Virus record (IMG/VR): IMGVR_UViG_3300014913_000006
Source of the DNA: a virus
DNA: 64,000 nucleotides
Strand: one strand, 5' to 3'
In this document: positions 1 to 7,044 of the stretch, one piece after another
Numbering within the stretch: the stretch's first letter is position 1
Layout of the letters: each line of letters begins with the position of its first letter
Notes under the pieces: generated by a model
What the model was told of the DNA's origin: nothing
What the model saw: the letters and a program-made list of their open reading frames with translations, nothing else
Database searches by the model: none
Translations under genes and position numbers: made by a program

Positions 1-412
1 TCACCTCATCGGGTAGCCCAGTCAGATCGTACCTCTTCAGGAACTCTGTAGCCCAGACGGCACCCGTGCTCTTGAATGACCCTCTTGTGGCAATCCGATG
101 CTGCCCCTCATGACGATAAAGGATACCAAGCCACCCGTCGTATTTCTTGAAGATACGGAATCCATCATGCCAGGGAAGCGCCCACTCCTGGGTGTCTCTT
201 CGCTGGTTCATGTTGAAGAACTTAGGAAATGGCCGTGCCACTACCTTTCCTGTCTTGCGATCGAAGATGATCCCCCGGCTATTCAGCGTGAGATCATTCC
301 AAGTCTTACACCAGTTGGTGTAGCTGTAGATGCGCATATCGCCCAGATCGTCGCACCGAAGCAATCGCTCAGCTACAAGCTTGTTTCGATCTTCTATGAA
401 ATCATACTTCAT
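1..412 (-). CDS. T4 Rnl1-like RNA ligase, N-terminal part (runs off the window); not in the ORF track
   Basis: Manual translation from ATG 412 gives MKYDFIEDRNKL...SRGIIFDRKTGKVVARPFPKFFN...KKYDGWLGILY...IATRGSF. RG..F...RPF.KFFN, the KxDG motif I and TRGSF are typical of Rnl1. ATGA overlap with the upstream gene. Confidence 0.85.
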   Translation of the reverse strand, partial: MKYDFIEDRNKLVAERLLRCDDLGDMRIYSYTNWCKTWNDLTLNSRGIIFDRKTGKVVARPFPKFFNMNQRRDTQEWALPWHDGFRIFKKYDGWLGILYRHEGQHRIATRGSFKSTGAVWATEFLKRYDLTGLPDEV

Positions 413-1389
413 ACCGTCACCTCAACTGGGTGTGCGGCACTGGCTGTATCATTATAAGCAACACACACATCAAGACAGTTTTTTGCACAGATTGGATCAG
501 CACCGCTATCGTGCTCTAGAATCCAACGTAGCCGATCCGCTCTCATGTTCGGCCCAACCTCTCCGATTGGGTCTCCACCTTCGCGTAGGTGGATAATGCA
601 CGGGAAGTGCCACTTGCCAGCGACAGCCATGTCGTCCAGGGCCAGCCAACACTTGCGACAGTTCCCGTCACAAATACCACGTACATTCTGACCAGCGTTG
701 AGATTGCCAATCCGGTACTTCAGGATAGGATACTTGTCGAGAATCTCATTTGGCAAATCAGCAAGATTCGTCAGAGCCTTGTTGTACTGTGCTGCTGGGA
801 TGACGCGGATGTCAGAAACCCCTAGACTGTCTACGAACAGAACCGCCTCAACACACTGATCAACGTTGGCCTCCGTGAATACCATTCCAACCGTCACATA
901 AGTGATCTTGCTCAAAGTGCGAATCGATTCAACAGCTTTCGCCCATGCGCCCTTCACACCACCAGCCATGTCTGTGCCGACAGCGCAGCATCCACCGTCA
1001 AGGCTAATAGAAAAGTCGTTTACACCGGCCCCTACCAATGCCAAGTATGTCTCAAGTTTTGCTGTTCCGTTGGTAGAGATTGCAATGCGTTCAACCCCGC
1101 CTCCGCGGCATCGATCGACCAACTTGCCAAGCCCCTTGTATAGAGTAGGTTCTCCACCAGAGAACCGAACGTTCTTTAGCCCTTGGGCGATCCAGAGGTC
1201 AACTGTTTTGAGCGCCTGTTTGAACGGCATATCTCCACGAATCTCCGGTCTTACACCACGGCAATACGGGCACCGTAGGTTACAGCGATCAGTAAGGATC
1301 AACTCACATCGCTGCAACGGAGAGGTGTCGCTAGCGTTCATCGCACGCTTGTCAGATAGCGTATAGAATCCAATGTCTTCAAGCTTCAT
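409..1389 (-). CDS. Radical SAM protein (MoaA/PqqE-like)
   Basis: CNLRCPYC (CxxxCxxC), FSGGEP, ISTNG, ISLDG and C-terminal Cys. Start is ATG 1389 after an AGGAGG RBS; the ORF-track extension overlaps tRNA-Tyr. Confidence 0.9.
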   Translation of the reverse strand: MKLEDIGFYTLSDKRAMNASDTSPLQRCELILTDRCNLRCPYCRGVRPEIRGDMPFKQALKTVDLWIAQGLKNVRFSGGEPTLYKGLGKLVDRCRGGGVERIAISTNGTAKLETYLALVGAGVNDFSISLDGGCCAVGTDMAGGVKGAWAKAVESIRTLSKITYVTVGMVFTEANVDQCVEAVLFVDSLGVSDIRVIPAAQYNKALTNLADLPNEILDKYPILKYRIGNLNAGQNVRGICDGNCRKCWLALDDMAVAGKWHFPCIIHLREGGDPIGEVGPNMRADRLRWILEHDSGADPICAKNCLDVCVAYNDTASAAHPVEVTV

Positions 1390-1407
1390 GACAACCTCCT
1401 TCACTAC

Positions 1408-1491
1408 TGGGCTGGGCGGGACTCGAACCTGCACGCCCCCGAAGGGAACCGCGTTTACAGCGCGGCGGGCCACCAATTGCCCAACCTACCC
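1408..1491 (-). tRNA. tRNA-Tyr(GTA), long variable arm, no encoded CCA
   Basis: Anticodon arm CGCG-CTGTAAA-CGCG; T arm GCAGG-TTCGAGT-CCCGC. Confidence 0.9.
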
Positions 1492-2479: not shown

Positions 2480-2553
2480 TTACTCGAAGGGACTCAAACC
2501 CCCGACTTCCTGGTCCCAGGCCAGGCGCTCCGGCCAGACTGAGCTATACACTG
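2480..2553 (-). pseudogene. Pseudo-tRNA-Pro(TGG)
   Basis: D arm TAGCTCAGTCTGGCCGGAGCG and anticodon arm CCTGG-CCTGGGA-CCAGG are intact, but the T loop is TTTGAGT and the 3' acceptor strand does not pair with CAGTGTA. Confidence 0.75.
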
Positions 2554-2582: not shown

Positions 2583-3221
2583 CTACGTAGAATGGCCTAT
2601 CACTTCAACTTCGATTCCACGCTTCCTTGCTTCACCGACTATATGCTTAGTACCCTTCGACTGGGATAGATCATCGTGGAAAGCAATAAGAAGGTGGGGC
2701 TTAGTATCTAGCATCTTGATGTTTCTTCTTATCCCTGCTGATTTCCCATACTTCCTCCATGCTGCCGGAAACTCAACCACCTCAAGGCCAAGGTCCAACG
2801 CCGTCTCCCGAGCTATCAAGTCAGCACCTTTACAGCCACCCTCGATGATTATGCTGTCAGATGGAAGATCGAACAATCGTTTGAAGATTGCTTGGCCATT
2901 ACTCCAATCCCGACCACCACAAACTAGCACCTTCATGGGTTTCTCCAAATACTCGACGATCACATCTCCATGACACGCCTTTGGCTTACAGAAACACCCC
3001 AGCCTCTTACCCCTCAACTCTTCCACTCGTGCGGCAAACTCCTGGTCAACCCGCAACCGCTTCAGGAAATACTCCCGGTACAACGCGATTGCCCGCTCAC
3101 GACCACCATCCCGCGTTACGCTATATGGGTTACCCCAATAGCCATCGTGGCCATGTCCCTCCCGACCGACGTACACATCGTATTCGTGTGTCCGAATGTT
3201 TACTACTGTGGTCTCAGCCAT
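2583..3221 (-). CDS. DUF4326 domain fused to a YspA/SLOG-like (DUF2493) domain
   Basis: N-term YDVYVGR...WGNPY...LRGKRLGCFCKPKACHGDV; C-term VLVCGGRDW...GADLIA...AGIRRNIKML...SKGTKH. Confidence 0.85.
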   Translation of the reverse strand: MAETTVVNIRTHEYDVYVGREGHGHDGYWGNPYSVTRDGGRERAIALYREYFLKRLRVDQEFAARVEELRGKRLGCFCKPKACHGDVIVEYLEKPMKVLVCGGRDWSNGQAIFKRLFDLPSDSIIIEGGCKGADLIARETALDLGLEVVEFPAAWRKYGKSAGIRRNIKMLDTKPHLLIAFHDDLSQSKGTKHIVGEARKRGIEVEVIGHST

Positions 3222-6266: not shown

Positions 6267-6566
6267 CTAAAAGCCCATCTGAACTTCATACTCTCTCCAT
6301 ACAGCCGCTCGAAATTCTTTCGAGAGTGGATGGACGGCGTAGGCCATCGCCTTCTTCCTACCCGTCGCACGGCAGAAGTTGTCGCCGGGATGACAAACTG
6401 CCAGTCCACGACCAACCATCTTTCCGTTCAGATTGACCGTAGCCAACGAACACCTACGATTTTCATCAACGCAGATACCTGTCAGACCCTCGATCTCGTC
6501 TGGCGCACAGAACTTGTGGTCAAACCGTACTTCAACTTCGTCGGAACCTAATGCTACTCTCAACAT
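6267..6566 (-). CDS. Hypothetical phage protein
   Basis: AGGAG RBS; G.AVCHPGDNFCRATGRKKA motif seen in phage hypothetical proteins. Confidence 0.65.
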   Translation of the reverse strand: MLRVALGSDEVEVRFDHKFCAPDEIEGLTGICVDENRRCSLATVNLNGKMVGRGLAVCHPGDNFCRATGRKKAMAYAVHPLSKEFRAAVWREYEVQMGF

Positions 6567-6598: not shown

Positions 6599-6736
6599 TG
6601 GCGAGCGCTGGATTCGAACCAGCAGTCCTCTTCCTTCACCCCTTGGTCCCAGAAAATGGGGACGGTGGATTACAGGACGCCCCACCAAGCTTGCTCCAAC
6701 AATACACTCCCTAACAAGTAGTGCGTTAAACTCGCC
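6599..6736 (-). ncRNA. 138-nt tRNA-like RNA with acceptor stem and T arm, D and anticodon arms replaced by long hairpins
   Basis: GGCGAGT/GCTCGCC+A termini; GCTGG-TTCGAAT-CCAGC; starts 2 nt after tRNA-Glu. Confidence 0.7.
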
Positions 6737-6738
6737 AC

Positions 6739-6811
6739 TACCCCCAGCGAGATTCGAACTCGCGTCATCGGACTGAGAATCCGATATCCTCTGCCACTAG
6801 AAGATGGGGGC
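6739..6811 (-). tRNA. tRNA-Glu(CTC)
   Basis: Acceptor GCCCCCA/TGGGGGT+A; anticodon arm TCGGA-TTCTCAG-TCCGA; T loop TTCGAAT. Confidence 0.9.
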
Positions 6812-7015
6812 CTCATCGGGCCTCGCACCCGTTCGGCGGTCACTATTCCGGCGTTCACCGCTAACTACCGCGACATCGGTTTCGGCACAGTTTCTTGACC
6901 CGGAACAGCGTACAGTAGGTTGCCTTCGTTCGCATCTGACCCGGCAACGGCAGTGATGCTTACCCACCCGTAAGTGCTACTGTCCTCCGATTATCGCTGT
7001 CCACGACGGCCTCAT
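6812..7015 (-). ncRNA. Candidate ~200-nt structured RNA directly 5' of tRNA-Glu
   Basis: Nested helices GGACAGCG/CGCTGTTC, ACAGTAG/CTACTGT, CTTAC/GTAAG, GTTGCC/GGCAAC, GCGGT/ACCGC; no credible ORF. Confidence 0.5.
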
Positions 7016-7044
7016 GCTCTCTCTTGTGTCGCCAAGAGTTAGAT

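What the first reader, a model, noticed from the sequence alone, without database searches (positions are those of the whole stretch)
6599..6736. 138-nt tRNA-mimic RNA co-transcribed with tRNA-Glu
It has a 7-bp acceptor stem plus discriminator A and a perfect T arm, so it should be processed like a tRNA. The interior is two long irregular hairpins (TTAACGCACT/AGTGT..GTTGG and GTCCT..GTCCC-CATTTTCT-GGGAC..AGGAC) with no 7-nt anticodon loop. It is too short for tmRNA and has no tag ORF. Established: T4 and T5 tRNA clusters encode stable tRNA-like RNAs of unknown function. Inference: a decoy for tRNA-targeting defences, or a scaffold.
Basis: partly seen in the sequence, partly recalled or inferred. 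Interest (0 to 1): 0.7.

Follow-up and report, generated by a model that had tools for sequence, protein, structure and literature searches.

The report
Anticodon-less tRNA-shaped phage RNA family
This is a real, conserved 138-base phage RNA gene that keeps the acceptor stem and T arm of a tRNA but carries a knotted fold where the anticodon arm should be; it cannot read codons, it resembles the still unexplained T4 "species 1" RNA in kind, and its job is unknown.

Summary
The element is real. It lies on the minus strand at 6599-6736, 2 nt after tRNA-Glu(CUC) and 32 nt before a 99-aa ORF. It has a 7-bp acceptor stem, discriminator A and a canonical T arm. ARAGORN and Rfam 15 do not call it.

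I found 10 further distinct homologues (138-175 nt). All are the last unit of a tRNA array in uncultured phages; the complete genomes are 160-166 kb. A covariance model built without the window sequence hits the window over its full length (57.8 bits).

Covariation is strong: 98% of cells paired and 24 of 37 pairs with double changes, against 27-48% paired in slid controls.

It is not coding, not an intron-bearing tRNA and not a tmRNA.

Best reading: a non-decoding tRNA-framed RNA, matured by tRNA enzymes, whose knotted module is the working part. Its target is unknown and the decoy idea is untested. Earlier notes of this scan describe similar tRNA-shell RNAs on other DNA, and one looks like this family.

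The parts
6599..6736 (-). Whole tRNA-shaped RNA, 138 nt
   Evidence: Full-length hit of model R1, which was built only from distant homologues: 57.8 bits, E 3e-13. Family covariation.
6730..6736 (-). Acceptor stem, 5' strand GGCGAGU
   Evidence: Pairs with 6600-6606. In the family this helix is 100% paired and 6 of 8 pairs show double changes. The other subtype has 8 bp.
6704..6724 (-). Hairpin A, D-arm-like: GCACU/AGUGU with loop ACUUGUUAGGG
   Evidence: L009 changes G.U to G-C and C-G to U.G and stays paired. The family helix has 4 of 5 pairs with double changes. The loop motif UUGUUAGGG is conserved.
6691..6702 (-). Hairpin B: UUGU/GCAA with a 4-nt loop
Evidence: The family helix is 100% paired and 3 of 4 pairs show double changes.
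6664..6686 (-). Pseudoknot stem S1, GGUGG (6682-6686) with CCACC (6664-6668); its loop holds the 5' strand of S2
   Evidence: GGCGG/CCGCC in 9 relatives and GGUGG/CCACC here and in L009. It is 100% paired although it was not part of the model.
6674..6678 (-). Pseudoknot stem S2, 5' strand GUCCU
   Evidence: Pairs with AGGAC at 6625-6629. 100% paired and 5 of 6 pairs with double changes.
6625..6629 (-). Pseudoknot stem S2, 3' strand AGGAC, 1 nt before the T stem
   Evidence: Its position next to the T stem is that of a class II variable arm.
6639..6661 (-). Hairpin D, CCCC/GGGG, with a 15-nt loop holding the invariant GGACC (6645-6649)
   Evidence: All 4 pairs show double changes, for example GUUUC/GAAAC in L027. 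GGACC is invariant in all 11 sequences.
6607..6623 (-). T arm GCUGG-UUCGAAU-CCAGC
   Evidence: Identical (17 of 17) to the T arm of the window's own tRNA-Leu(CAA). 100% paired in the family.
6599..6606 (-). Acceptor 3' strand GCUCGCC plus discriminator A (6599); no CCA is encoded and UU follows
   Evidence: All 11 homologues have UU after the discriminator and none encodes CCA.
6739..6811 (-). tRNA-Glu(CUC), directly upstream on the same strand
   Evidence: ARAGORN; Rfam tRNA 53.9 bits.
6267..6566 (-). 99-aa ORF that starts 32 nt after the element; the conserved syntenic neighbour
   Evidence: 21 homologues. It is present with and without the element. AlphaFold2 pLDDT 92 with no clear PDB fold match.

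Best explanation
The element is a gene for a non-decoding, tRNA-framed structured RNA.

Shown here:
- It belongs to a family of at least 11 distinct sequences.
- Every member is the last unit of a phage tRNA array.
- Seven helices are supported by covariation: acceptor stem, D-like hairpin, small hairpin, two pseudoknot stems, a hairpin with an invariant GGACC loop, and the T arm.
- There is no anticodon arm, no conserved reading frame and no encoded CCA.

Inferred:
- It is co-transcribed with tRNA-Glu.
- RNase P cuts it at its 5' end.
- Its 3' end is trimmed after the discriminator (UU always follows) and host enzymes add CCA, as for the phage's own CCA-less tRNAs.
- The acceptor/T/D frame then acts as a natural 'tRNA scaffold': it gives precise ends and nuclease resistance, and it presents the pseudoknotted module that replaces the anticodon arm.
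- The module is the working part and binds an unknown partner. The most likely partner is a protein in the phage-host conflict over tRNA.

My odds:
- Real functional RNA, about 0.85.
- tRNA-type maturation, about 0.65.
- Scaffold plus cargo logic, about 0.5.
- Specifically a decoy for a tRNA-directed defence, about 0.2.

The confidence figure given for this explanation (0.55) is for the statement as a whole.
For: Homology. Model R1 was built from 8 relatives without the window. It hits the window over its full length at 57.8 bits and L009 at 65.5 bits.

Covariation. On alignment A5, 98.3% of cells are paired and 24 of 37 pairs show double changes. None of 500 shuffles reaches these values, and slid controls pair 27-48%. 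The sequence-only MAFFT alignment A3 gives 95.8% paired and 17 of 37 pairs with double changes. Pseudoknot stem S1 was not in the model and is still 100% paired.

Position. The element is always the last unit of a tRNA array, 1-12 nt after a tRNA or a conserved leader, on the same strand. A ribosome-binding site follows within about 25 nt.

Not coding. The open frames are inconsistent between homologues, L015 has stops in all six frames, and lengths differ by non-multiples of 3.

Class II tRNA flavour. R1's best hits outside the family are tRNA-Leu genes in the window (17.1 and 12.8 bits) and T4 tRNA-Leu and tRNA-Ser. The T arm is identical to that of the window's tRNA-Leu(CAA).

Experimental precedent. 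An engineered scaffold of acceptor, T and D arms with the anticodon arm replaced is processed precisely in E. coli and protects its insert (PMC3753655). T4 RNAC and RNAD accumulate from the T4 tRNA region (PMC9697503, PMC3014915).

Context. Relatives carry RNA ligase, Macro, Nudix and phosphoribosyltransferase genes beside the array.
Against: There are no expression data of any kind. Mature ends, CCA addition and stability are all inferred.

The single-sequence folding energy is unremarkable (z -1.07).

The tRNA frame is loosely kept:
- The T loop has 6 nt in 6 of 11 members.
- The acceptor plus T stack is 12 or 13 bp.
- The discriminator is A in 6 members and G in 5, and it differs between the window and its 93%-identical relative L009.

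Four complete related genomes lack the element, so it is dispensable.

The family is narrow: one phage clade, with no hit in 185,579 species genomes by pattern search.

With 11 related sequences, and with the A5 alignment fitted to the model, the covariation counts are somewhat inflated.

No partner has been identified.
Confidence: 0.55

Rival explanations
1. It is only a processing and stability signal (punctuation). In this reading the tRNA-like fold exists to give RNase P and RNase Z cut sites. These finish the 3' end of the last true tRNA and release or stabilise the downstream mRNA. The RNA has no function of its own.
For: It is always the terminal unit of the array. A ribosome-binding site and an ORF follow within about 25 nt, and UU always follows the discriminator. 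In L031 a different ORF follows, yet the arrangement is kept.
Against: An ordinary tRNA does the same job in relatives that lack the element (L024, L225, L022). A cut signal does not need a covarying pseudoknot or invariant loop motifs such as GGACC and UUGUUAGGG.
Confidence: 0.15
2. It is charged with an amino acid by an anticodon-independent synthetase of the Leu or Ser type, and serves as an aminoacyl carrier outside normal decoding.
For: It has class II-like features. S2 lies 1 nt before the T stem, as a long variable arm does. The D-like loop resembles the tRNA-Leu D loop. R1's best non-family hits are tRNA-Leu and tRNA-Ser. From established knowledge, LeuRS, SerRS and AlaRS do not read the anticodon.
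Against: The discriminator switches between A and G, even between sequences that are 93% identical. There is no G3.U70. The acceptor/T stack length and the T loop vary. Conserved synthetase identity would predict none of this.
Confidence: 0.1
3. It is a decaying tRNA gene: a relic of a class II tRNA with junk inserted, and no function.
For: It is patchily present and absent from four complete relatives. The T loop is degenerate in several members.
Against: Compensatory changes keep all seven helices paired across sequences that are down to roughly 55-65% identical. Loop motifs are invariant. A relic would lose pairing.
Confidence: 0.05
4. It is a miniature tmRNA-like ribosome-rescue RNA, or a tRNA interrupted by an intron.
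For: It combines a tRNA-like acceptor and T domain with a pseudoknot, and its size lies between those of a tRNA and a tmRNA.
Against: ARAGORN in tmRNA and intron modes finds nothing at default thresholds. At relaxed thresholds it gives a different anticodon and different borders in every homologue. No Rfam tmRNA or tRNA hit appears even at E 10. There is no G3.U70 and no conserved frame. Five complete relatives carry no SmpB gene.
Confidence: 0.03

Closest known systems
Bacteriophage T4 stable RNAs, species 1 (rnaC, 139 nt) and species 2 (rnaD, 119 nt)
   Same: It is a small RNA gene at the 3' end of a phage tRNA cluster, on the same strand as the tRNAs and about 140 nt long. rnaC carries a canonical T arm, CCGGG-UUCGAAU-CCCGG. 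Its function is unknown (PMC3014915, PMC9697503).
   Different: There is no detectable homology: R1 scores 6.3 bits on rnaC. The interior architecture differs. The T4 RNAs are shown to accumulate, whereas this one has no expression data.
Class II tRNA, especially tRNA-Leu (Rfam RF00005)
   Same: It shares the acceptor stem, the discriminator, the T arm (identical to the window's tRNA-Leu(CAA)) and a long D-type loop with GG. A helix abuts the T stem like a long variable arm. R1's best non-family hits are tRNA-Leu genes.
   Different: It has no anticodon arm and no Rfam or ARAGORN call. The D-like stem has 5-6 bp. The acceptor has 8 bp and the T loop 6 nt in many members. The discriminator is not fixed.
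tmRNA (SsrA)
   Same: A tRNA-like acceptor and T domain is joined to a pseudoknot, and the RNA is matured by tRNA enzymes.
   Different: It has no tag frame, no G3.U70 and no long P2 helix. It is less than half the size. No model matches it, and the phages carry no SmpB gene.
Engineered 'tRNA scaffold' for recombinant RNA (PMC3753655)
   Same: The design is the same: acceptor, T and D arms are kept and the anticodon arm is replaced by a structured insert. This design is processed and protected in E. coli.
   Different: The scaffold is man-made. Whether the natural RNA uses its frame for this purpose is inferred.
YrlA / bacterial Y-RNA-like RNAs (Rfam RF02553)
   Same: Both are non-decoding RNAs with a tRNA-like domain, and YrlA genes also occur in some phages.
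   Different: In YrlA the 5' and 3' ends form the Ro-binding stem and the tRNA-like part is internal. Here the ends form the acceptor stem. RF02553 does not match the element.

Membership tests
tRNA (RF00005) | Acceptor stem of 7 bp plus discriminator, and a T arm of 5 bp with a 7-nt loop | tested here: met
   Read directly from the window sequence. In relatives the acceptor has 8 bp and the T loop often 6 nt.
tRNA (RF00005) | Anticodon arm (5 bp, 7-nt loop) and a score above the family threshold | tested here: not met
   No ARAGORN call. No Rfam tRNA match even at E 10.
tRNA with intron | Removing one insert restores a cloverleaf with the same anticodon in all homologues | tested here: not met
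   ARAGORN in intron mode gives none at the default threshold. At a relaxed threshold, the anticodons and borders differ in every homologue.
tmRNA | G3.U70, a resume codon with a tag reading frame, and a match to a tmRNA model | tested here: not met
   Position 3:70 is C-G or U.G. There is no conserved frame. ARAGORN -m and Rfam are negative.
tmRNA | SmpB partner | tested here: not met
   No SmpB (PF01668) in 5 complete related phage genomes. A host SmpB cannot be excluded.
T4 rnaC/rnaD-type stable RNAs of phage tRNA clusters | Lies at the 3' end of a phage tRNA array on the same strand, is about 120-140 nt long, and has tRNA-like features | tested here: met
T4 rnaC/rnaD-type stable RNAs of phage tRNA clusters | Homology in sequence or structure to rnaC or rnaD | tested here: not met
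   R1 scores 6.3 bits on rnaC and has no significant hit on rnaD.
T4 rnaC/rnaD-type stable RNAs of phage tRNA clusters | Accumulates as a discrete stable RNA during infection | not testable with these tools
   The phage is uncultured and no RNA data are held.
Class II tRNA-Leu shell | Discriminator A73, a class II D arm and a T arm retained | tested here: inconclusive
   A73 is present in only 6 of 11 members. The D-like loop resembles tRNA-Leu but the stem is 5-6 bp. The T arm equals that of the window's tRNA-Leu(CAA). tRNA-Leu genes are the best non-family hits of R1, but they score only 11-17 bits.
YrlA (RF02553) | Match to the family model, with a terminal Ro-binding stem | tested here: not met
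   No match on the element. Its ends form an acceptor stem.

The most novel reading that the evidence does not exclude
The element is one family within a broad, undescribed class of phage RNAs. In this class the top half of a class II tRNA serves as a natural expression and stability scaffold for diverse structured cargo modules. Here the cargo is a pseudoknot with an invariant GGACC loop. It would act as an RNA anti-defence factor or regulator by binding a host or phage protein. The same logic would explain T4 RNAC and RNAD.
Probability: 0.25. Interest if true: 0.8.

Novelty: new variant of a known kind. Interest (0 to 1): 0.55.

Why it matters
Stable tRNA-like RNAs at the ends of phage tRNA clusters have been known since the 1970s (T4 RNAC and RNAD), and no function has been assigned to them.

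This family adds a well-defined example backed by covariation. The tRNA frame is clearly separable from a conserved pseudoknotted module with invariant loop residues. That gives concrete targets for mutagenesis, pull-downs and structure work.

If the frame-plus-cargo reading holds, phages would be using the cell's tRNA maturation system to make and protect functional RNAs. This would be a natural counterpart of the laboratory 'tRNA scaffold'.

The practical limits are real. The phages are uncultured sediment viruses, the family is narrow, and nothing about expression or partners is known.

Tried and rejected
Database and model searches that found nothing:
- Rfam at gathering and at E 10, on the window and on the divergent subtype.
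- ARAGORN in tRNA, intron and tmRNA modes. The relaxed-threshold calls were inconsistent.
- INPHARED phages by DNA and by portal protein: no close relative.
- Two IMG/VR tries with the window's own sequences.

Searches that were poorly aimed or came back negative:
- The pattern TACGGCGGG...AACCGCCA was too loose. It gave 54 viral and 120 or more genome loci, and the model confirmed only two of the 54 viral loci, both already known; the genome loci were not put through it.
- A tighter 3' pattern found only known viral members and no member in the species genomes.
- A partial model hit in L048 is GC-rich coding sequence.

Other checks that led nowhere:
- A naive scan of all column pairs for further covarying contacts was uninformative with 11 sequences.
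- A possible pair between position -1 and position 73 is not consistent.
- A possible CUGU/ACAG helix shows no covariation.
- The stop codons UGA and UAA near the 3' part suggested a tag frame, but no frame is conserved.
- Protein coding is rejected.
- The fold of the neighbouring 99-aa protein is confident but matches nothing clearly in the PDB. The double-stranded-RNA-binding-domain-like rows at TM 0.3-0.4 are not evidence.
- No SmpB or CCA-adding enzyme gene was found in five related complete genomes.
- Promoter and terminator scans were at chance level.

Full report
**1. Observation**

Read on the minus strand, window 6599-6736 is a 138-nt stretch. It has these features:
- It begins 2 nt after tRNA-Glu(CUC) (6739-6811).
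- It ends 32 nt before the ATG of a 99-aa ORF (6267-6566).
- Its ends form a 7-bp acceptor stem, GGCGAGU with GCUCGCC, followed by discriminator A.
- Directly inside lies a canonical T arm, GCUGG-UUCGAAU-CCAGC. This is identical to the T arm of the window's own tRNA-Leu(CAA).
- CCA is not encoded, as in the phage's true tRNAs.

ARAGORN does not call it as a tRNA or a tmRNA. Rfam 15 gives no match at gathering thresholds or at E 10.

The minimum-energy fold of the single sequence is not unusual (z -1.07). So the case for a real RNA has to come from comparison with homologues.

**2. Setting**

The window is a phage with only remote relatives among deposited phages, and no whole genome is held for it.

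The 99-aa neighbour has 20 homologues in metagenomes. Their contigs and further loci give the syntenic region in many uncultured phages; the complete genomes are about 160-180 kb. The samples appear, from my reading of the record names only, to be mostly sediments.

In these loci the gene is preceded by a tRNA array.

**3. Homologues**
- L009 and its duplicates carry a 93%-identical copy, again right after tRNA-Glu.
- Nine further distinct loci carry a more divergent element of 147-175 nt in the same slot: L013, L014, L015, L027, L029, L031, L044, L046 and L229.
- L044 links the two subtypes. It has tRNA-Glu followed by the divergent type.
- Covariance model R1 was built from eight divergent members only. 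It hits the window over its full length at 57.8 bits (E 3e-13) and L009 at 65.5 bits. The two subtypes are therefore one family.
- Four complete related genomes lack the element. It is single-copy where present.
- Pattern scans found it only in this phage clade and in no bacterial or archaeal species genome.

**4. Structure**

The family shares seven helices:
- An acceptor stem (8 bp in the divergent type, 7 bp here).
- Hairpin A, D-arm-like, with the loop motif UUGUUAGGG.
- A small hairpin B.
- Pseudoknot stem S1 (GGCGG/CCGCC in most members; GGUGG/CCACC here).
- Stem S2. Its 5' strand lies in the S1 loop and its 3' strand lies 1 nt before the T stem (GUCCU/AGGAC here; for example ACUCCU/GGGAGU in L027 and GUUCCG/CGGAAC in L029).
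- Hairpin D, whose loop holds an invariant GGACC.
- The T arm.

Some members have an extra hairpin between D and S2.

Covariation figures:

| Alignment | Cells paired | Pairs with double changes | Shuffles reaching this | Slid controls paired |
|---|---|---|---|---|
| A5 (fitted to the model) | 98.3% | 24 of 37 | 0 of 500 | 27-48% |
| A3 (MAFFT, 8 divergent members) | 95.8% | 17 of 37 | 0 of 500 | 27-47% |

S1 was not part of the model and is still 100% paired.

Two caveats apply. There are only 11 related sequences, and one of the alignments is fitted to the model.

**5.
- The outer helix of the second hairpin is S2. It is fully supported.
- The inner helix GUCCC/GGGAC is paired in 41.8% of cells, the level of the slid controls. 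It is replaced by S1 and hairpin D.
- The core of the first hairpin is hairpin A.
- The UUAAC/GUUGG extension competes with the covarying hairpin B.

**6. What it is not**
- Not coding. The open frames are inconsistent, one homologue has stops in all six frames, and lengths differ by non-multiples of three.
- Not an intron-bearing tRNA. ARAGORN intron mode finds nothing at default, and relaxed calls disagree in every homologue.
- Not a tmRNA. It has no G3.U70 and no conserved frame, no model matches it, and five complete relatives carry no SmpB gene.
- Not YrlA.

**7. What it resembles**

T4 rnaC is 139 nt, is annotated 'species 1 RNA', lies at the end of the T4 tRNA cluster and has a canonical T arm. 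R1 does not recognise it (6.3 bits), so the likeness is one of kind and not of descent. The roles of T4 RNAC and RNAD are stated as unknown (PMC3014915; PMC9697503).

The frame has a class II tRNA flavour. R1's best hits outside the family are tRNA-Leu genes of the window (17.1 and 12.8 bits) and T4 tRNA-Leu and tRNA-Ser. S2 also sits where a long variable arm would.

**8. Mechanism**

Shown: a conserved, non-decoding, tRNA-framed fold in line with tRNAs.

Inferred: co-transcription, RNase P cleavage at 6736/6737, 3' trimming after the discriminator (UU follows in all 11) and CCA addition by host enzymes. Five complete relatives carry no CCA-adding enzyme gene.

The engineered 'tRNA scaffold' keeps the acceptor, T and D arms and replaces the anticodon arm. 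It is processed precisely and protected in E. coli (PMC3753655). On that basis I read the frame as a natural scaffold and the pseudoknotted module as the working part.

Several facts argue against a role that needs strict tRNA identity, such as specific charging or ribosome entry:
- The discriminator varies between A and G, even between the window and L009.
- The T loop has 6 nt in six members.
- The acceptor plus T stack is 12 or 13 bp.

The partner is unknown. The neighbourhood of RNA ligase, Macro, Nudix and phosphoribosyltransferase genes in relatives fits a tRNA-conflict setting but proves nothing. The decoy idea remains untested.

**9. Earlier notes of this scan (unchecked leads)**

These notes describe several anticodon-less 'tRNA-Leu shell plus module' RNAs in other phages. 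One 152-nt element has the same GGCGG/CCGCC helix and an 8-bp terminal stem after tRNA-fMet. It looks like a member of this family.

The scaffold reading was suggested by one of these notes. I adopted it after finding the experimental precedent.

**10. Verdict**

This is a real new RNA family of a known but unexplained kind. The function is open.

Noticed in passing
window 6812-7043 (-), especially 6817-6898 and 7011-7043: The non-coding stretch 5' of tRNA-Glu has two blocks that are 90-100% identical in L013, L014 and L031/L032. The neighbouring protein in those loci is only 52-78% identical. In those loci the blocks directly precede the tRNA-like element, and in L022 they partly precede tRNA-Glu(UUC). 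The window copy carries an insert of about 110 nt between the blocks. Rfam has no match and the folding energy is unremarkable (z -0.61). It may be a conserved leader, a promoter region or a second RNA.
   Followed up: partly
window 2487-2546 (-): A partial tRNA match (Rfam 31.1 bits, model positions 8-63) that ARAGORN does not call. It has D, anticodon and T arms, but no proper acceptor stem is visible. It may be a truncated or unusual tRNA.
   Followed up: no
L014:1094-1183: A tRNA-like sequence with an acceptor stem, a D arm and a T arm (GUGGGUUCAAAUCCCAC) but extra sequence in the middle. ARAGORN does not call it. It sits where relatives have tRNA-Met. It may be a tRNA with an insert, or another shell-type RNA.
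   Followed up: no
window 6267-6566 (-): The 99-aa protein conserved across this phage clade has invariant Cys, His and CHPxDNF motifs. Its AlphaFold2 model is confident (pLDDT 92). It has no Pfam or PHROG family and no clear PDB fold match.
   Followed up: partly
L047:1-490: In one relative the RNA ligase gene beside the array carries an intein with a LAGLIDADG endonuclease, according to the precomputed Pfam hits.
   Followed up: no
window 409-1476 (-) and 2583-3221 (-): A radical SAM protein and a DUF4326 plus YspA/SLOG-type protein lie among the tRNA genes of the same island.
   Followed up: no
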